Positions 2,779-10,801 of a stretch of DNA of 10,801 bases are shown here, piece after piece (the stretch's first letter is position 1; the number at the start of each line of letters is the position of its first letter). A program made the position numbers and the translations under genes. The DNA lies in the IMG/VR virus record IMGVR_UViG_2529292726_000024, positions 1 to 10,801 of that record; one strand, given 5' to 3'. Source of the DNA: a virus (taxonomy: Duplodnaviria; Heunggongvirae; Uroviricota; Caudoviricetes). A model generated the notes under the pieces. It saw nothing but the letters and a program-made list of their open reading frames with translations, had not been told where the DNA came from and did no database searches.

Positions 2779-3837
2779 ATGCGCATGAATAGACTTCCAG
2801 GATATGGCCTTCCCGAACTGGCTTTTTGGCCTCAGCCTAAATATGAACGGAATAAATGGTCGATGTTCTGTCTGAAACTCCGTAATGATGGAACCCTTGC
2901 TTGGTATCGGCGATATGTTGATCGTGGTATGCCAAACCACGCTTTTGATGACGACTACGATAACTATCCTGAAGCAAGAAAAGCGGCATTAGAGCTGAAT
3001 AAAAACGTGAGCTTTGACATTGAAAAACTTCCTCTATCTATGTTTCAAAAGAAGTCATTGCGTTTGAAAGTTGACAAAGCACTCAAAGCCAAATCACGTC
3101 TCATGGATGAAGAGCATATAATGCTCAACGAAGCAATTAAGGCACACGCCAACGATCCGCGAGTGACATTAAATGAGTTAATAATTAACCCAGATTACGA
3201 AACTTTGCGTCAACCCCTTTTTGACGTGCTAAGCGAGATGCCTTACTTACATTTTGTTTTTCTTCCCAAATTCCAAGTTTCACTTCAACTCGTTGCTCCT
3301 AACACTTGGGAATGTTCATATAACAACAAAGCTAAGACAGCGAAGATCTGCTACCAAGAACGCATAGCCAGAGGTTTTGGTTTATCAGGTGCTGCACATT
3401 GGGGAAAAACAAAAGCGACTATTCGCTCAATGCTTCTGCCGCGTGCTAACCGGTTACTGCAACTCGCCAGCGTAAAAAGAATGCTGGATGAAGCTCTCAG
3501 GAATGGGCAAAAGGTACTGGTTGTTGGCAACTTTGTTTTCTGGTTTGAGGACAAAAATCAGGTAGGTTGGAGTGTTAAAGTTGCTAGCGAAAGCGAAACC
3601 ACCTCAAGAGGCAATACGCTCTGGAAAGAAGGAACTATCATTTCAAAAAATCACGGTCGAATTGTCGTGCTGCCGTATACAAAAGAAAACGGTAAACATG
3701 TAAAAGGTTATACCAAGAATGCCCCTAACGACGGCAACGCAATTCCGAGACATAAGGATGAGTATGTCGAGTTGCCCTTTGAAATTTTGGATGGTGACTT
3801 GATGTTCAGTCTGTTCGGTGAGCTTAACTACGAATAG
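2779..3837 (+). CDS. hypothetical protein (352 aa from ATG 2779; 357 aa if the GTG at 2764 is used), orphan accessory gene of unknown function
   Basis: Uninterrupted ORF on the strand opposite to both flanking modules; terminator-like hairpin downstream; AT-richer than neighbours by hand count (3001-3060 about 32% GC versus about 45% for 1381-1440 in the helicase). No Walker, HTH, TM or nuclease motif recognised. Start codon uncertain; no strong SD. Confidence 0.6.
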   Translation: MRMNRLPGYGLPELAFWPQPKYERNKWSMFCLKLRNDGTLAWYRRYVDRGMPNHAFDDDYDNYPEARKAALELNKNVSFDIEKLPLSMFQKKSLRLKVDKALKAKSRLMDEEHIMLNEAIKAHANDPRVTLNELIINPDYETLRQPLFDVLSEMPYLHFVFLPKFQVSLQLVAPNTWECSYNNKAKTAKICYQERIARGFGLSGAAHWGKTKATIRSMLLPRANRLLQLASVKRMLDEALRNGQKVLVVGNFVFWFEDKNQVGWSVKVASESETTSRGNTLWKEGTIISKNHGRIVVLPYTKENGKHVKGYTKNAPNDGNAIPRHKDEYVELPFEILDGDLMFSLFGELNYE

Positions 3838-3897: not shown

Positions 3898-4257
3898 TCA
3901 ACCTTTCTTCATTAACTCGCGTTTAATTTCATCGGTACGCATCGTGACATCGGCAGCGGTGATCGCCTCATTCAATTTCACGATGTCCTCGATTTCCTGC
4001 GGTGACTTCTCTGCCAGATGGAAAATGGCTGCTCGAATCACGTCAGAACGAGTGAACTTCTCGAAGCGAGGGATGAACTTCATCATCTCCAGCAGTTCGA
4101 AGTATTCGTCCTCCAGTGACATTGTGCGGCTTTTAATTTTCTCTTTGCCACGAGTCGGGCGTCCCTGTGGTCTGACTGGTTGGCGCAAAGGAGTTGTGTT
4201 CTTAGCCGGTGCATCAGGCTCTTTGCGCTTTGCTAGGTCACCCATTTTCATGGACAT
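3898..4257 (-). CDS. small partition-locus partner protein (ParG/ParB-like centromere-binding protein candidate)
   Basis: 119-aa ORF whose ATG (4257-4255) overlaps the ParA stop (4259-4257) as TAATG; basic, Pro-rich N-terminal tail and short C-terminal domain, typical of small partner proteins of ParF-type ATPases. Assignment is by context, not motif. Confidence 0.5.
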   Translation of the reverse strand: MSMKMGDLAKRKEPDAPAKNTTPLRQPVRPQGRPTRGKEKIKSRTMSLEDEYFELLEMMKFIPRFEKFTRSDVIRAAIFHLAEKSPQEIEDIVKLNEAITAADVTMRTDEIKRELMKKG

Positions 4258-4925
4258 TATTCTTCTTCCTCCAGACTCAACAGATAATCTACAAATTCTT
4301 CAAACTCGGCTTCCGCCTTTTTGTCGCGCTCGCTACCGGTCATTTCAAAGATAGAACGACCAGACTCTTCCGCATCATCATAGACGTTGCGGTTATATAG
4401 ATTGACTGGCGCAGACTCGATTCCAAACGTCTCAACAATCTCTTTAGCCGCCAGAATGCGAGACACTTGTGATGGCAAAGCCGGGCACTGGTTCATGACC
4501 GCGCGGACCTTCACTTTATCGTTTACATTGCGAACATTGTCGATAATAGGATCGATGTCACGTAAAGATTTCAAATCACGACGCTTAGGACGCAGCGGGA
4601 TAATGATAACGTCAGCCATCAGCATCGCTTGTCGCTGAATTTCGGAGTCGAAGCCACCAGCATCTACCACTACAAACTCAGCTCTACCCTGAAGCGATTT
4701 TAGGTGCTTAATGATGTCATCCTGAACGTATGCAAAAGGAATCAGCTCAAGGTCTTCGTTCTGTCGACGGTCTTCACACCAGCTCGTTGTCGTGCGCTGA
4801 ATATCTATATCGGTAATATAAACCTTCTTCTTCTTTTTGACTTTCAGGCAAACGGCAATTTGCTGGGCAACGGTGGATTTGCCAGGCCCGCCCTTTGTGC
4901 CGCCAACCACAAAGATCTTGGTCAT
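4257..4925 (-). CDS. ParA/ParF-family partition ATPase (deviant Walker A)
   Basis: 222 aa; deviant Walker A GGTKGGPGKST near the N-terminus; acidic C-terminus; small size typical of type Ib ParA. Confidence 0.8.
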   Translation of the reverse strand: MTKIFVVGGTKGGPGKSTVAQQIAVCLKVKKKKKVYITDIDIQRTTTSWCEDRRQNEDLELIPFAYVQDDIIKHLKSLQGRAEFVVVDAGGFDSEIQRQAMLMADVIIIPLRPKRRDLKSLRDIDPIIDNVRNVNDKVKVRAVMNQCPALPSQVSRILAAKEIVETFGIESAPVNLYNRNVYDDAEESGRSIFEMTGSERDKKAEAEFEEFVDYLLSLEEEE

Positions 4926-5188: not shown

Positions 5189-5243
5189 GTTTGAACAGAG
5201 GAGATTGATGGCCTTCCTACATCACGGCCATCAGGAGGAATAC

Positions 5244-5513
5244 ATGTCAGCACTAAAAAAGCAGCGCATCGATTTGAGATTAACCGATGACGATAAAAGC
5301 ATCATCGAGGAAGCTGCCGCAATGTCTAACCAGAGCATTACTCAGTTTATGGTTAGCAGTGCATCTGAACGTGCCGTGAAAGTTATAGAGCAACACCGTA
5401 GACTAGTTCTGAATGAAGAATCCTGGAATCTGGTTATGGACGCTATAAGCAATCCTCCGGCACCGAACGACAAGCTGAAACGAGCTGCTGATCGTCTGAA
5501 AAGCATGGAGTAG
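5244..5513 (+). CDS. type II antitoxin, DUF1778 (RHH) family, AtaR/TacA/KacA-like
   Basis: MSALKKQRIDLRLTDDDKS... matches the conserved N-terminus of DUF1778 antitoxins as I remember them. SD AGGAGG 5 nt upstream of ATG 5244; an alternative in-frame ATG at 5208 also has an SD. Stop is 7 nt before the toxin start. Confidence 0.8.
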   Translation: MSALKKQRIDLRLTDDDKSIIEEAAAMSNQSITQFMVSSASERAVKVIEQHRRLVLNEESWNLVMDAISNPPAPNDKLKRAADRLKSME

Positions 5514-5520
5514 TTTACTC

Positions 5521-6042
5521 GTGGATAATATAAAGATAGAAATTTTCTCTGGAGAGAAAGATTATGATTTGAATGGTTTTGATTGCGGTGAAGAATCACT
5601 AAATGCCTTTTTAACCAACCACTTAAAAAGGCAGCATGAGGGAAAAATTCTTCGCGCTTATGTGCTTTGCACGAAAGAAGGCAGACCAAAAGTGTTAGGG
5701 TATTACACTTTGTCAGGTAGCTGCTTTGAAAAGGAGTCCTTACCTTCAAGAAGCCAGCAAAAGAAGGTACCTTATCGGAATGTTCCAAGTGTTACTTTGG
5801 GTAGGCTGGCTTTGGACAAGTCCCTTCAAGGTCAAGGATTTGGCTCAATGCTTGTAACACATGCAATGCGCGTTGTGTACAATGCATCTCTTGCTGTAGG
5901 CATTCATGGACTTTTCGTTGAGGCGTTAAATGACAAAGCCAAGGCGTTTTATAAAAGTTTAGACTTTATCCAGCTGGTTGGTAACAACGAGCGTTCTTTG
6001 TTCTATCCTACAAAATCTATCGAAAAATTGTTCGAAGAATAA
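5521..6042 (+). CDS. GNAT-family N-acetyltransferase toxin (AtaT/TacT/ItaT-like, aminoacyl-tRNA acetylating)
   Basis: 173 aa, GTG start; acetyl-CoA-binding motif LQGQGFGSML; conserved FDCGEE and VGIHGLFVEALN segments remembered from AtaT-family toxins; directly downstream of the DUF1778 antitoxin. Confidence 0.8.
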   Translation: MDNIKIEIFSGEKDYDLNGFDCGEESLNAFLTNHLKRQHEGKILRAYVLCTKEGRPKVLGYYTLSGSCFEKESLPSRSQQKKVPYRNVPSVTLGRLALDKSLQGQGFGSMLVTHAMRVVYNASLAVGIHGLFVEALNDKAKAFYKSLDFIQLVGNNERSLFYPTKSIEKLFEE

Positions 6043-7168: not shown

Positions 7169-7492
7169 TTATTGCAGTCCACTTTTTACGCCATACGCGG
7201 CTAACCCCAAAAGCAGTGCGGTAATAATGAACGACGTTATTTTAGAAACAATGCCGCCAAAGAACCCACTTGAGATGGAATCTAACCGGTTAAGGAGTTT
7301 GTCCAGATTGGAGTGTTGAATACTATGTTGCGCCGGGGTCATATCACCAAAGTAGGTTTTCAGCTGATCATTGACCTCCTGGCCAATTTCTTCACGTAGC
7401 TCTTTACCTAATTTGCCAACAACCTCCCGAGCAACGATCGCGGCAATACGCTCAACTTGCTCTGTTGTAACGCCCGCCATCTCGTTCGACAT
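7169..7492 (-). CDS. small tail-anchored membrane protein (holin-like by position, unverified)
   Basis: ATG at 7492 has a strong SD GGAGG 5 nt upstream (alternative ATG at 7504 lacks one). About 85-aa charged N-terminal region then a single C-terminal TM ITSFIITALLLGLAAYGV. Stop is 13 nt before the next gene. Confidence 0.4.
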   Translation of the reverse strand: MSNEMAGVTTEQVERIAAIVAREVVGKLGKELREEIGQEVNDQLKTYFGDMTPAQHSIQHSNLDKLLNRLDSISSGFFGGIVSKITSFIITALLLGLAAYGVKSGLQ

Positions 7493-7573
7493 GTTTTCCT
7501 CCATGAAAAGTCAAATCGGGATGGCGGATTTATATCACATTTCACCCTTTTGTTGTAGGTGTGTACTTACCTA

Positions 7574-7807
7574 TCATTCAGCATTGCAACCGATTGATGA
7601 GAAAGCACCTACTCCAACCCATCGCCAGTTATAGATGCTACCCGCTTTGTATAAGGTATAGTCGTTCACTTTTTTAACAGCATATATGGGTATGACTGTC
7701 TCCTGTCCACCAATGATAGCTTCACCATAACATATAGGTGTCGGCAATTTCTGGCAGCCAGTAAGAGAGAGAACAACAGCTATTGTTAGAAATAATCTTT
7801 TCATCAT
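7574..7807 (-). CDS. small lipoprotein, 77 aa (candidate Cor-like superinfection-exclusion lipoprotein)
   Basis: Signal peptide MMKRLFLTIAVVLSLTGC with lipobox LTGC; starts 4 nt after the stop of the 202-aa gene; size and position after the tail-fibre genes recall Cor-type lipoproteins of lambdoid/N15-like phages, but sequence similarity is not verified. Confidence 0.55.
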   Translation of the reverse strand: MMKRLFLTIAVVLSLTGCQKLPTPICYGEAIIGGQETVIPIYAVKKVNDYTLYKAGSIYNWRWVGVGAFSSIGCNAE

Positions 7808-7814
7808 TTACTCA

Positions 7815-8423
7815 TCAGTTATACAGATTTCTATTTATTACCGGTACTCTGCCATTTACGCTAAAACTATGGCCGCCATTAAGTTGGTTTACGAATATCG
7901 AGCTAACAGTATTTCCATATGCCGCATATCCATAAACCATTGTCATGGCTCCGCCCGGTACTGGAACAGCGAACACATTCGCATATGTTGGGATTATCGC
8001 TGGAGGGTAATCAAAAACATGCCCTCCAGAGCTGTTCCACTCCGTATTATTAAGAAAGGTAAATGAAAGTGGGATATTTGCCGTATTATAGATTTCCTCC
8101 CCTTGTGCATTGAAAAAACTCATGCCCCAAGTTTCTTTTTTGGCTATACCTTTCGAAAATACGTATATCGTGGCACTAGAGTCGCTACCCTGACCTCCGA
8201 AACTGTAAATCACCTGGTTGTTACGCACTATTCTGTTGGCTATTAATGAAACAGCTTTCGAATAGGCAACAAAAATAATCGGTGAACGATCTGGAGATAT
8301 TTTGGTGTTAAACTCTGTTCCGCCGGACAAAGAAACAACCTGCTTTCTCTGAAAAACGATAGGAGACAAAGAAGGAGACATCCAGACCTTCCCGTCAGAT
8401 CGATATATCTTGCTTCCGTACAT
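7815..8423 (-). CDS. hypothetical protein, 202 aa, Gly/Ser/Asn/Tyr-rich, probably beta-rich
   Basis: ATG at 8423-8421 overlaps the stop of the upstream gene as TAATG (translational coupling). No TM segment or catalytic motif seen. Confidence 0.55.
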   Translation of the reverse strand: MYGSKIYRSDGKVWMSPSLSPIVFQRKQVVSLSGGTEFNTKISPDRSPIIFVAYSKAVSLIANRIVRNNQVIYSFGGQGSDSSATIYVFSKGIAKKETWGMSFFNAQGEEIYNTANIPLSFTFLNNTEWNSSGGHVFDYPPAIIPTYANVFAVPVPGGAMTMVYGYAAYGNTVSSIFVNQLNGGHSFSVNGRVPVINRNLYN

Positions 8424-8677
8424 TATTTTTGAAAAACCAATATGTTTAAATTACCACTAGCTCCAGACCACGAAATGGTATTTCCAGAAACCGTAAGACT
8501 TGTGTACTTTCCATTGGTTACGTCCATTATGTAATAGTCGATTCCCAATCCCGCCTCAACCTCATATGTTCTACTTCCTGAACCAGAGGGAGTAAAATAA
8601 TCGAGGTAATAAACAGGGGCCAACGCATTGACCATCTCCTGTCTTGATGGCGACCAAACCTGTGCACCATAGCTCAT
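8423..8677 (-). CDS. hypothetical protein, 84 aa
   Basis: ATG at 8677 with SD AAGGA 7 nt upstream; first gene after the tail-fibre stop; coupled to the 202-aa gene. No motif recognised. Confidence 0.5.
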   Translation of the reverse strand: MSYGAQVWSPSRQEMVNALAPVYYLDYFTPSGSGSRTYEVEAGLGIDYYIMDVTNGKYTSLTVSGNTISWSGASGNLNILVFQK

Positions 8678-8702
8678 AAATATATCCTTATACTTTTAAG
8701 CA

Positions 8703-8725
8703 GGGGCTGGTTTAGCTCCAGCCCC
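8703..8725. other. GC-rich hairpin between the tail-fibre gene and the downstream cassette
   Basis: GGGGCTGG (8703-8710) pairs with CCAGCCCC (8718-8725), 7-nt loop. U-rich flank only on the plus strand, so it is not a convincing terminator for the minus-strand operon; possibly an RNA-stability or processing element. Confidence 0.3.
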
Positions 8726-8737
8726 GATTGAAGTTGT

Positions 8738-10534
8738 TTATTCTTTAGGTGAATTTAACTTCGTTTCAAGCTCCTCAACCCTTTTGGTCAATTGCTGAAT
8801 ATGATGAATGAGTGGTACAACCAAACGCTCATACATCACTCCTTCAGCGACCATACCATTTGAGGAAATACCTTCTGGAGAATCATTATTTGTTGGTTCA
8901 CGCCAATGGACATATTGCGGGGCAATCTCACCAACCTCTTCAGCAATAAGGCCGTAATACCCCCAATCCTTTCGGTCACCTCGACAAATTGAACGATACC
9001 AAACAGGTCTTAATGACAAAAGTTCATCAGCATATCGATCTTGTAATGTTTCAATATCCTTTTTATAGCGCCTTGAAGACGTTGAACGCCAAACTGTATT
9101 GATACCTGGGTTTGGATCAATGTACATATTGGCACCGCTAGTAGTTGTGCCAATATCCCATATAGCAAACCCTCCACTACCGCCTGATTTGACAACCAGT
9201 GTTTCAGCAACAATATCCAGGTTGCCACTATAGCCTGTCAGTGATGATCTGCTTGCATAGGAACTTAGAAGGTTTGCTACCTCTGTTTTCGTGTAAGCAT
9301 TAAGGTTAGCCGCAGTCAAAGTTATATCGGCAGAGCCATCAAACGCCACACCAGCAATTTTCCTTGCTGTCTGCAATTTTGTGGCGGTTGCGGCATTACC
9401 AGTAGTGTTCTGATTACCAGTGGCATTCACACCAGGAATGGAGTCCCTTGATGTATATACCTGCGCCCACGCTGACCATGCCGCAACTGTGTAATCTCTT
9501 CGGGAGCGAATGAAAACCGGCGCATGTGCACCGCTCGTACCACTCCAGCCAATAAGCAACTCGCCCTCACCAGCAGCACTCGCACCTTTCATGTGCAATA
9601 CGTTGCCATACGTGGTCGGGTAGCTATTGTTGTACACCTCATACATTTGAATGCCAGCAGTGCCTTGAGTAGAGCCGCTTAACGCCGTAACTCGGCCACG
9701 AGATACCAATGTATTAATATTGATATCGCCTGAACCATCAAACTTAACACCATTGATGTTTCTCGCTGTTTGCAACTTCGTAGCTGTTGAAGCATTACCG
9801 TTCAAACTACCATTTACGCCACCAGTCACATTTAGTCCATTACCAATTGATACAGCACCGCTGGTATTATTAATTGTAATAGGTCGCAAACCGTTCCATG
9901 AACCTAATGTGTCTCCTGATGCTGTTAGCAGGAAATATGTGTTCGCCCCATCATTACGGATAAAGAACCCAAAGTTACCGTAAGCAATGCGGAAACCATT
10001 TGCATATTTTGAAACGATCTCACCAGAAGACGTTAACCCTCCAGATAATGTGCCACCTGAAAGCGGTAATGCTCCTACATCAGAAGCTGTTGGTTTGTTT
10101 CTAGTGTTATACGCTCTGCGCCATCCAGGTGAATAACTTGAGCCATTAGACACATAGATAAACTCCGCATTAGTGAGTGCACCAGAGACATTTGTCGTAG
10201 TGGCCGTTGTTATTCGAATGGTGTAATTGTTGGTATTATTGCTGAATACTTCTATCACAGCACCCGCCAGTGGAATAATGCCACAACCAGTTTCACTGTC
10301 TGGTATGGATGCACTATTCGCATACGCCCATGCACAACGAGCGATCCATGCTTTCGTACTGAATGCCCCGTTATTTTGCAACAAAGTAACTAACTGGGCT
10401 GTCGTTATTGCCCCTCCATTACTTCCTGTAGTTAACCAACCAGTAGGAGATGCCGGGCAACCTATATTTGCTGGCGACAAGGCAATATTTGCCGAGCCGT
10501 CAAACGACACCCCATTGATAGTACGCGCAGTCTG
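8738..10534 (-). pseudogene. tail fibre protein with C-terminal S74 intramolecular-chaperone domain, 5-prime truncated by IS2 insertion
   Basis: Three copies of the tail-fibre repeat LQTAR-INGV-FDGS; C-terminal domain with SSRRYKKDI (S74 auto-cleavage consensus) and ...VPLIHHIQQLTKRVEELETKL. The reading frame runs into the IS2 left end at 10535, so the first ~45 codons of the 643-aa track ORF derive from IS2. Confidence 0.8.
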
Positions 10535-10801
10535 TAGACTGCCCCCCTGAATCTCCAGACAACCAGTATCACTTAAATAAGTGATAGTCTTAATACTAGT
10601 TTTTAGACTAGTCATTGGAGAACAGATGATTGATGTCTTAGGGCCGGAGAAACGCAGACGGCGTACCACACAGGAAAAGATCGCAATTGTTCAGCAGAGC
10701 TTTGAACCGGGGATGACGGTCTCCCTCGTTGCCCGGCAACATGGTGTAGCAGCCAGCCAGTTATTTCTCTGGCGTAAGCAATACCAGGAAGGAAGTCTTA
10801 C
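10535..10801 (+). mobile_element. IS2 (IS3 family), left end, partial (runs off window)
   Basis: Sequence from TAGACTG at 10535 through the insC start matches the IS2 left end as I remember it (near-identical, one or two mismatches in the terminal repeat). Boundary good to about 3 bp. Confidence 0.85.
10626..10801 (+). CDS. insC: IS2 transposase OrfA (InsC), N-terminal part
   Basis: [58 protein letters not shown] is the recognised InsC N-terminus; SD GGAG upstream; ORF continues beyond the window. Confidence 0.85.

What the first reader, a model, noticed from the sequence alone, without database searches (positions are those of the whole stretch)
7574..8677. Tightly coupled three-gene cassette (84 aa, 202 aa, lipoprotein) immediately downstream of the tail fibre: candidate novel system
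The genes are packed with a 1-nt TAATG overlap and a 4-nt gap, implying co-translation and a shared function. The two larger proteins have no motif I recognise (Gly/Ser/Asn/Tyr-rich, no TM). The location just beyond the tail-fibre gene is a known moron and defence hotspot in tailed prophages. Alternatively they could be distal fibre or adhesin accessories, which the S74 self-chaperoning fibre would not obviously need.
Basis: partly seen in the sequence, partly recalled or inferred. Interest (0 to 1): 0.65.

Follow-up and report, generated by a model that had tools for sequence, protein, structure and literature searches.

The report
Phage receptor-binding and self-exclusion cassette
The three genes are a phage-plasmid's copy of the known "cor cassette": the lipoprotein is the exclusion protein Cor, and the 202-aa protein has the fold of a proven phage receptor-binding protein, so this looks like host-recognition equipment, not a new defence system.

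Summary
Three co-directional minus-strand genes (84 aa, 202 aa, 77-aa lipoprotein) lie between a tail-fibre gene and the holin gene of an SSU5-like E. coli phage-plasmid. The TAATG overlap is real. The second gap is 7 nt, not 4.

The cassette is not a new system. The lipoprotein is Cor, a known superinfection-exclusion lipoprotein. The 84-aa and 202-aa proteins belong to phrog_557 and phrog_425. These are the families of N15/phi80 gp22 and gp23, which sit in the same order before cor in phi80, and which the literature reports before cor in T1, N15, HK022 and ES18.

Nearly every related plasmid carries exactly one copy of the pair. Cor co-occurs only with this allele.

Most likely the 202-aa protein is the terminal RBP on the central J fibre. 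The 84-aa protein would be its partner, and Cor would block the same receptor, possibly FhuA. RBP function is inferred, not shown.

Verdict: new member of a known kind, modest interest.

The parts
8423..8677 (-). 84-aa protein, phrog_557 family (N15/phi80 gp22-like). Small beta-sandwich, proposed partner, adaptor or chaperone of the receptor-binding protein.
7815..8423 (-). 202-aa protein, phrog_425 family (N15/phi80 gp23-like). Proposed terminal receptor-binding protein that docks on the tip of the central fibre J.
7574..7807 (-). Cor superinfection-exclusion lipoprotein precursor, 77 aa.
   Evidence: NCBIfam NF047972 'phage exclusion lipoprotein Cor', 80.1 bits against a cutoff of 31. phrog_1119 E 7.8e-30. 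Lipobox LTGC with Cys18, and Cys26 and Cys74 invariant in an alignment with the phi80, SSU5, Stx-phage and Warwickvirus Cor proteins. 43% identical to phi80 Cor in that alignment.
8703..8725 (-). 8-bp GC-rich hairpin (GGGGCTGG / CCAGCCCC, 7-nt loop) in the 60-nt spacer between the fibre stop and the 84-aa start.
   Evidence: Read directly from the sequence. It is not followed by a T-run and was not called as a terminator. Its function was not tested.
8738..10526 (-). 3' part of the lateral tail-fibre gene (Gp34-trimer and Peptidase_S74 domains). Context only, not part of the cassette's proposed function.
   Evidence: Pfam and PHROG hits. The gene is cut at about 10527 by IS2.
7169..7504 (-). 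Holin gene, which starts the lysis cassette. It marks the downstream boundary of the variable region.
   Evidence: phrog_5093 E 2e-68. Annotated as holin in Cyrano and SSU5. Homology to phage Cyrano (99.4%) runs from the holin gene up to window position 7575, the cor stop codon, and ends there.

Best explanation
The cassette is the host-recognition and self-exclusion module of an SSU5-like phage-plasmid. It is a diverged copy of the gp22-gp23-cor cassette of phi80, N15, T1, HK022 and ES18. The three genes are made together from the late tail-to-lysis transcript. The 202-aa protein is a soluble two-beta-sandwich adhesin. Its conserved N-terminal 'base' docks on the short conserved C-terminal tip of the J-like central fibre, and its variable loops bind an outer-membrane protein receptor, which triggers irreversible adsorption. 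The 84-aa protein is a single small beta-sandwich with the same N-terminal module. It assembles with the adhesin or on the same J tip, as an adaptor, co-adhesin or chaperone. Cor is exported, lipidated and sent to the outer membrane. There it binds the same receptor from the periplasmic side and blocks adsorption of this and related phages to infected or lysogenic cells and to lysis debris. The receptor is probably FhuA, by analogy with phi80, N15 and T1 Cor, but it was not determined. Shown here: the family memberships, the fold match, the gene order, the distribution and the J-tip homology. Inferred: presence in the virion, docking on J, the identity of the receptor, and the role of the 84-aa protein.
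For: 1. Cor identity is supported by HMM scores well above cutoff, the lipobox and the conserved cysteines.
2. phi80 has the same order and tight packing, J-gp22(100 aa)-gp23(224 aa)-cor. SSU5 has it too, as SSU5_023-025.
4. There is weak sequence-level support for the same link. A phrog_425 member, CYRAN_89, also hits phrog_1265, the Rtp44 family, at E 1.9e-6. hhalign of the family against Rtp44 gives E 4.8e-4.
5. Two studies link allelic variants of the RBP locus downstream of gpJ to the terminal receptor, one of the alleles being FhuA-specific (PMC8594841; bioRxiv 10.64898/2026.04.02.716166). A third links this cor cassette specifically to FhuA use (PMC13164509).
6. The J proteins of phi80, SSU5, sister plasmids of the window, Cyrano and Warwickviruses are homologous up to their last residue. 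They lack lambda J's terminal ~200-aa receptor-binding domain.
7. 241 plasmid records hold a 202-aa homologue in 249 places, so there is essentially one copy per element. That fits an essential part better than an optional moron.
8. Cor co-occurs with this allele only: 73 Escherichia records have the trio and 73 have Cor.
9. Warwickvirus phage tunus has the same three families in a different order: Cor-like lipoprotein, 92 aa, 204 aa.
10. Family conservation is highest at the N-terminus and the last residues and lowest in between, with indels in the middle. The LptD RBPs show the same base-versus-tip pattern (PMC13035648).
11. The list of genes expressed in the Cyrano lysogen does not include its copy of the pair (PMC9928086).
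Against: No experiment shows that any phrog_425 or phrog_557 protein is in a virion or binds a receptor. The cryo-EM structure of T1 did not resolve the distal J tip (PMC11945409). In the window the trio is separated from J by the lateral-fibre gene. In about 115 related plasmids and in phage Cyrano the homologous pair lies among early or accessory genes, far from the tail genes and without Cor, which is unusual for a structural gene. 933W-like short-tailed phages carry the pair without Cor, and some Stx phages carry Cor without the pair. The Foldseek global TM-score to 9rpt_C is low (0.32) and sequence identity is 14%. SSU5's published receptor, which I recall from the literature and did not check here, is the LPS core and not FhuA. 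The authors of the KanT1 paper assume instead that the two proteins act in exclusion.
Confidence: 0.66

Rival explanations
1. All three proteins together form a superinfection-exclusion or defence system. The 84-aa and 202-aa proteins would help Cor reach, recognise or inactivate the receptor.
For: The pair is tightly coupled to cor here, in SSU5 and in phi80. PHROGs files phrog_425 under 'moron, auxiliary metabolic gene and host takeover' and names the pair 'membrane associated' and 'outer membrane' proteins. PMC13164509 proposes a role in exclusion. In Cyrano-type elements the pair lies outside the tail module.
Against: Neither protein has a signal peptide, lipobox or TM segment, so neither can reach the periplasm or outer membrane where Cor acts. 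There is no PADLOC hit. The PHROG names are unreliable: the Rtp44 family, whose member from Oekolampad is a proven RBP, carries the same kind of 'membrane protein / moron' label. The pair occurs without Cor in 933W and Cyrano, and Cor occurs without the pair in phi367. The fold match is to an adhesin. One copy per element argues for an essential function. The pair is not on the list of genes expressed in the Cyrano lysogen.
Confidence: 0.15
2. The 84-aa and 202-aa proteins are accessories of the adjacent lateral tail fibre, acting as a distal adhesin or an assembly chaperone.
For: The cassette lies immediately downstream of the lateral-fibre gene. Variable regions of related elements swap the fibre end and what follows it.
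Against: The identical trio follows two unrelated fibre ends: an S74 self-chaperoning end here and in pECAZ162_2, and a fibre plus its own Tfa chaperone in NZ_CP061757 and SSU5. There is no similarity to Tfa or gp38-type families. In phi80 the trio follows J and precedes the side fibre, separated from it by an annotated terminator. The fibre gene in this window is itself broken by IS2, while the trio is intact and identical to that of other plasmids.
Confidence: 0.06
3. The two larger genes have some other role unrelated to adsorption or exclusion, such as a lysis accessory, because they sit next to the holin gene. On this reading the fold match reflects only a common lectin-like beta-sandwich scaffold.
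For: The cassette abuts the lysis cassette. Beta-sandwich folds recur widely, and the 84-aa model gives only generic matches.
Confidence: 0.05

Closest known systems
gp22-gp23-cor cassette of phi80, N15, T1, HK022 and ES18 (the 'extended cor cassette', or FhuA-type RBP locus)
   Same: The same three protein families appear in the same order, tightly packed and co-directional with the tail genes. The J proteins share a homologous C-terminal tip (PMC13164509).
   Different: The 202-aa protein is only 20-28% identical to other family members, and the 84-aa protein is about 26% identical to phi80 gp22. It is 84 aa long against about 100 aa. The cassette lies after the lateral-fibre gene rather than directly after J. 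The host element is a ~110-kb phage-plasmid. Its receptor is unknown.
Rtp44 / RBP-Oekolampad plus Rtp45, the LptD-type RBP and exclusion-lipoprotein locus of small siphophages (PDB 9RPT, 9RPS)
   Different: The sequence families differ (phrog_1265 against phrog_425, and phrog_4281 against Cor). The LptD adhesin is a single protein of 254-311 aa, whereas here there are two proteins of 84 and 202 aa. That locus is convergent with J. Its receptor is LptD.
T5 pb5 and Llp
   Same: The logic is the same: a monomeric adhesin at the tip of a central fibre, plus a small outer-membrane lipoprotein of about 77 aa that disables the same receptor (FhuA) from the periplasmic side (PMC9586334, as cited).
CYRAN_88/CYRAN_89-type pair of other E. 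coli SSU5-like phage-plasmids, and 933W gp64/gp65
   Same: The same two families occur as an adjacent pair.
   Different: About 26% identity to the 202-aa protein. No Cor gene alongside. In Cyrano-type elements the pair sits in a different part of the genome. The two alleles almost never occur in the same plasmid.

Membership tests
Cor superinfection-exclusion lipoprotein (NCBIfam NF047972, phrog_1119) | Profile score above the curated cutoff over the full length | tested here: met
   80.1 bits against a cutoff of 31, residues 2-75 of 77. phrog_1119 E 7.8e-30.
Cor superinfection-exclusion lipoprotein (NCBIfam NF047972, phrog_1119) | Signal peptide with a lipobox cysteine, and a conserved cysteine pair in the mature protein | tested here: met
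   LSLTGC with Cys18. Cys26 and Cys74 are invariant across the five Cor proteins aligned.
Cor superinfection-exclusion lipoprotein (NCBIfam NF047972, phrog_1119) | Blocks adsorption of FhuA-dependent phages when expressed | not testable with these tools
   Needs plating of T1, phi80 and T5 on cells that express the gene.
Extended cor cassette / RBP locus of phi80, N15 and T1 (gp22-gp23-cor) | Members of phrog_557 and phrog_425 lie immediately upstream of cor, in that order, on the same strand | tested here: met
   phi80 was compared and SSU5.
Extended cor cassette / RBP locus of phi80, N15 and T1 (gp22-gp23-cor) | Located directly downstream of the gpJ homologue | tested here: not met
   In sister plasmids and in SSU5 the lateral-fibre gene, with or without tfa, lies between J and the trio. 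The trio is still in the same tail-gene block.
Extended cor cassette / RBP locus of phi80, N15 and T1 (gp22-gp23-cor) | J protein ends in the short conserved tip shared by phages with a separately encoded adhesin, without a lambda-type terminal receptor-binding domain | tested here: met
   J of two sister plasmids with a 99.9-100% identical trio aligns with phi80 J (39.5% identity) and tunus J (about 32%) up to the last residues. Lambda J aligns only upstream of that tip. J itself lies outside the window.
Extended cor cassette / RBP locus of phi80, N15 and T1 (gp22-gp23-cor) | The phage uses FhuA as its terminal receptor | not testable with these tools
   No receptor data exist for this element. 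Identity to characterised members is too low to transfer specificity.
Small-siphophage receptor-binding protein fold (RBP-Oekolampad / Rtp44, PDB 9RPT) | Structural similarity well above background | tested here: met
Small-siphophage receptor-binding protein fold (RBP-Oekolampad / Rtp44, PDB 9RPT) | Detectable sequence homology | tested here: inconclusive
   hhalign of the family against Rtp44 gives prob 32%, E 4.8e-4. The relative CYRAN_89 hits phrog_1265 at E 1.9e-6, but the window protein does not. No PDB hit by sequence profile.
Small-siphophage receptor-binding protein fold (RBP-Oekolampad / Rtp44, PDB 9RPT) | Present in the virion and binds an outer-membrane protein | not testable with these tools
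   Needs virion proteomics and binding assays.
Known anti-phage defence systems (PADLOC-DB) | Any component matches a defence-system model | tested here: not met
   No hit for any of the three proteins at E of 0.1 or less.
Tail-fibre assembly or chaperone proteins (Tfa, gp38-like) | Family match, and dependence on one particular fibre type | tested here: not met
   No Pfam or PHROG match to such families. The identical trio is combined with two different fibre ends, one of which has its own Tfa.

The most novel reading that the evidence does not exclude
The FhuA-type (phrog_425) and LptD-type (phrog_1265) adhesins, so far called unrelated, would be one ancient superfamily of monomeric lectin-like tip adhesins. 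In the phrog_425 branch the adhesin would be split into two proteins that share one N-terminal docking module. The 84-aa protein would then fill the remaining sites of the trimeric J tip and resolve the three-to-one symmetry mismatch. SSU5-like phage-plasmids would switch terminal receptor by choosing between two mutually exclusive loci, only one of which comes with a Cor blocker.
Probability: 0.25. Interest if true: 0.5.

Novelty: new member of a known kind. Interest (0 to 1): 0.3.

Why it matters
SSU5-like phage-plasmids are common in clinical Enterobacteriaceae, and phage-plasmids as a class can carry resistance genes. What decides which cells they can enter has hardly been described. Reading this cassette as the terminal adhesin plus its matching receptor blocker gives a concrete, swappable host-range determinant to test. 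It also suggests that lysogens are protected from other phages that use the same receptor. More generally, the fold match ties the still uncharacterised gp22/gp23 proteins of phi80, N15 and T1 to an experimentally proven adhesin. It also shows that database labels such as 'outer membrane protein', 'membrane associated protein' and 'moron' are misleading for these families.

Tried and rejected
- Pfam and NCBIfam gave nothing for the two larger proteins. PADLOC gave nothing for any of the three.
- The word-indexed protein search found only close relatives of the 202-aa protein. The exhaustive HMMER search found a small family of 34 representatives. One of them, a 1611-aa low-complexity repeat protein, I dismissed as spurious after reading it.
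- A sequence-profile search of the PDB found nothing.
- I tested whether a long J (a C-terminal extension replacing the RBP locus) explains the missing trio in Cyrano. It does not. J is 1574-1575 aa and over 99% identical at the C-terminus in elements with and without the trio.
- I looked for a lipoprotein next to the Cyrano-type pair and found none.
- The promoter and terminator scan found no independent transcription unit around the trio: two weak promoter-like sites, fewer than in shuffled sequence, and no terminator at the hairpin.
- The 2006 Rtp genome paper, the first description of the cassette, is not held in the library.
- Papers on SSU5 and FhuA gave no receptor data for this group.

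Full report
**What is there.** The window is part of an SSU5-like phage-plasmid of E. coli. The region 7400-8800 is 100% identical to several ~110-kb non-mobilizable plasmids. The flanks encode ParA, a DnaB-like helicase, a toxin-antitoxin pair and a lysis cassette like those of phages SSU5 and Cyrano. Reading the minus strand, the order is: a lateral tail-fibre gene with Gp34-trimer and Peptidase_S74 domains (8738 upward); an 84-aa ORF (8677-8423); a 202-aa ORF (8423-7815); a 77-aa lipoprotein ORF (7807-7574); then holin, endolysin and spanins.

The one-base TAATG overlap is real. The second spacer is 7 nt (TGA TGAGTAA ATG), not 4. Only the first gene has a good Shine-Dalgarno sequence. The two larger proteins have no Pfam or NCBIfam domain, no hydrophobic segment and no cysteine.

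**It is a real, conserved unit.** The 1104-bp trio occurs in 126 plasmid records, full-length in 123. Seventy-three are in Escherichia at 95-100% identity. Fifty-three are in Enterobacter, Salmonella, Citrobacter and Kluyvera at about 68% nucleotide identity. SSU5 itself has the trio as SSU5_023-025. At the protein level these are 68%, 76% and 59% identical to the window's 84-aa, 202-aa and Cor proteins.

**What the parts are.** The lipoprotein is Cor. NCBIfam 'phage exclusion lipoprotein Cor' scores 80 bits against a cutoff of 31, and phrog_1119 gives E 8e-30. It has the lipobox LTGC and two further cysteines that are invariant across the phi80, SSU5, Stx-phage and Warwickvirus Cor proteins.

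The 84-aa protein belongs to phrog_557 (E 2e-24) and the 202-aa protein to phrog_425 (E 6e-49). In phi80 the genes after J are gp22 (100 aa, phrog_557 type), gp23 (224 aa, phrog_425 type) and cor, annotated as similar to N15 gp22, gp23 and Cor. That is the same order and packing as here.

A 2026 paper describes this 'extended cor cassette' in T1, HK022, N15, ES18 and phi80, citing the 2006 Rtp genome paper. It links the cassette to use of FhuA as receptor and reports no structural match for the two upstream proteins (PMC13164509). The BASEL study and a 2026 preprint treat the locus downstream of gpJ as the place where small siphophages encode their terminal receptor-binding protein. With it come one or two accessory proteins and a cognate exclusion protein (PMC8594841; 10.64898/2026.04.02.716166).

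**New evidence on the 202-aa protein.** An exhaustive profile search found a small family of 34 representatives, mostly 204-234 aa. An alignment of 26 members gave a confident AlphaFold2 model: pLDDT 89.2, pTM 0.86, all-beta.

That protein was shown by cryo-EM to bind the extracellular face of LptD. The adjacent small lipoprotein of the related phage Rtp, Rtp45, binds the periplasmic face and prevents RBP binding (PMC12685063).

Weak sequence signals point the same way. A phrog_425 member from phage Cyrano also hits phrog_1265, the Rtp44 family, at E 1.9e-6. hhalign of the family against Rtp44 aligns the conserved core at E 4.8e-4, though with only 32% probability. Both families carry 'membrane protein' and 'moron' labels in PHROGs. 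These labels are clearly unreliable, since the Rtp44 family includes a proven adhesin.

In the LptD adhesins the N-terminus lies in the conserved 'base', which is thought to attach to the tail (PMC13035648). In the 202-aa family, conservation is likewise highest at the N-terminus and the last residues, and lowest, with indels, in between. I infer that both proteins use this module to dock on the same partner. The exact role of the 84-aa protein is open.

**Context that discriminates between readings.**

- *Different lateral fibres.* The identical trio follows two different lateral-fibre ends: the S74 type here and in pECAZ162_2, and a fibre with its own Tfa in NZ_CP061757 and SSU5. It is therefore not an accessory of the S74 fibre.
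- *J tip.* The J proteins of sister plasmids, SSU5, Cyrano, phi80 and Warwickviruses are homologous up to their last residue. Lambda J matches them only upstream and then continues into its own ~200-residue receptor-binding domain. These J proteins therefore look like carriers of a separate adhesin.
- *Copy number.* tblastn finds a 202-aa homologue in 241 plasmid records at 249 places. About 126 carry the trio allele. About 115 carry a ~26%-identical allele at another locus, the CYRAN_88/89 type, which has no lipoprotein gene alongside it in Cyrano. One copy per element, in one of two alternative forms, fits an essential part better than an optional moron.
- *Cor linkage.* Cor occurs in 73 Escherichia plasmid records, the same number as the trio.
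- *Warwickvirus.* Phage tunus has the same three families in the order Cor-like lipoprotein, 92 aa, 204 aa, convergent with J.
- *Expression.* The published list of genes expressed in the Cyrano lysogen does not include its pair (PMC9928086).
- *Defence models.* No defence-system model matches any of the three proteins.

**Most likely mechanism.** Late in infection the three genes are translated together. The 202-aa protein, with the 84-aa protein, assembles on the tip of the central fibre J and binds an outer-membrane protein, which commits the phage to DNA injection. Cor goes to the outer membrane of the infected or lysogenic cell and disables the same receptor from the periplasmic side.

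The receptor is probably FhuA, because Cor proteins of phi80, N15 and T1 act on FhuA. However, Cor-like proteins also occur in BtuB-dependent phages, and identity to characterised members is low, so this remains a guess. My confidence in the whole reading is about two-thirds. Identification of Cor is near-certain.

**What speaks against it.** No member of either family has been shown in a virion or bound to a receptor. The distal J tip was not resolved in the T1 structure. The trio is not directly next to J here. The Cyrano-type allele sits among early or accessory genes. The pair and Cor can each occur without the other.

The main rival is that the pair assists Cor in exclusion. It is weakened by the lack of any export signal in either protein and by the fold match, but it is not excluded.

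**Comparison and novelty.** This is a diverged member of a known cassette, 20-28% identical for the 202-aa protein, in a group of elements where I found no description of it. It works like the Rtp44/Rtp45 and pb5/Llp pairs: an adhesin plus a blocker of the same receptor. What may be new is modest:

- the structural link between the phrog_425 family and the LptD adhesin family, which a recent preprint counts among four 'unrelated' RBP families;
- the N-terminal module shared by the two proteins;
- the two mutually exclusive loci in SSU5-like phage-plasmids.

Its 'adhesin accessory' alternative is close, but for the central fibre, not the lateral one.

Noticed in passing
window 10527-10801 (runs off the window end): An IS2 element is inserted in the lateral tail-fibre gene. 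The plus strand from 10626 encodes the N-terminus of the IS2 TnpA/InsC repressor (NF006928 E 1.8e-37). Bases from about 10527 on match IS2 copies at up to 98.9% identity in thousands of plasmids. The listed 643-aa fibre ORF therefore starts inside IS2 sequence, and only about 596 C-terminal residues belong to the fibre. This element probably makes no intact lateral fibre.
   Followed up: yes
L009 12416-12982, L010 2596-3162, L002 6431-6997 (equivalent to window 7815-8423): Public annotations start the 202-aa gene 14 codons too late, giving 188 aa and a false 41-nt gap. The conserved family N-terminus and the TAATG overlap support the longer ORF. The cor gene shows no annotated feature under the match in any of the E. 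coli plasmid records listed, while the Enterobacter and Salmonella records call it 'lipoprotein'.
   Followed up: partly
L008 4001-4899 (phage Cyrano CYRAN_88/89), and about 115 plasmid records: E. coli SSU5-like elements without the trio carry a distant allele of the same pair. In Cyrano it lies at a different locus, between P1 TciA/TciB-like genes and a DNA methyltransferase-like gene (annotated DUF4942), with no lipoprotein gene nearby. The two alleles almost never co-occur: 241 records, 249 places.
   Followed up: partly
L003 2025-3189 (phage tunus gp02-gp04): Warwickvirus gp02 is an 89-aa lipoprotein (lipobox LTGC) that matches the Cor family (phrog_1119 E 8e-8). The Warwickvirus locus convergent with J therefore holds the same three families in a different order.
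   Followed up: yes
L004 4768-5618 (phage 933W gp64/gp65), L006 3486-3713 (phage phi367): Short-tailed Stx phages of the 933W type carry the pair between a tail-fibre gene and lom, without Cor. Stx phage phi367 carries the closest non-SSU5 Cor (58% identity) right after a tail-fibre adhesin gene, without an adjacent pair (a phrog_557-type 'outer membrane protein' gene lies about 3 kb downstream, cut by the locus end). The 933W gp64 annotation appears truncated at the N-terminus relative to the family.
   Followed up: no
L010 about 3459-3620 (equivalent to window 8678-8800 and beyond): Plasmid NZ_CP061757 keeps at least the last 63 bases of the S74-type fibre gene as non-coding DNA between its own tfa gene and the 84-aa gene. 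This is a scar of a fibre-module swap just upstream of the trio.
   Followed up: partly
window 8703-8725: A perfect 8-bp GC-rich hairpin lies between the fibre stop and the 84-aa start. No T-run follows on either strand, and it was not called as a terminator. It could be a transcript-stabilising structure or a recombination boundary.
   Followed up: partly
L009 16135-17589 and L010 7119-8573: In both sister plasmids a 1455-bp stretch between the J stop and the annotated start of the lateral-fibre gene has no listed feature. It may be the 5' part of the fibre gene annotated as a pseudogene, or simply missing from the plasmid gene table.
   Followed up: no
window 5205-6042 and 4257-4925: A DUF1778 antitoxin / GNAT acetyltransferase toxin pair (KacT/TacT type by the Cyrano annotation) and a ParA partition ATPase lie just beyond the lysis cassette. 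This is the plasmid-maintenance side of the element.
   Followed up: no
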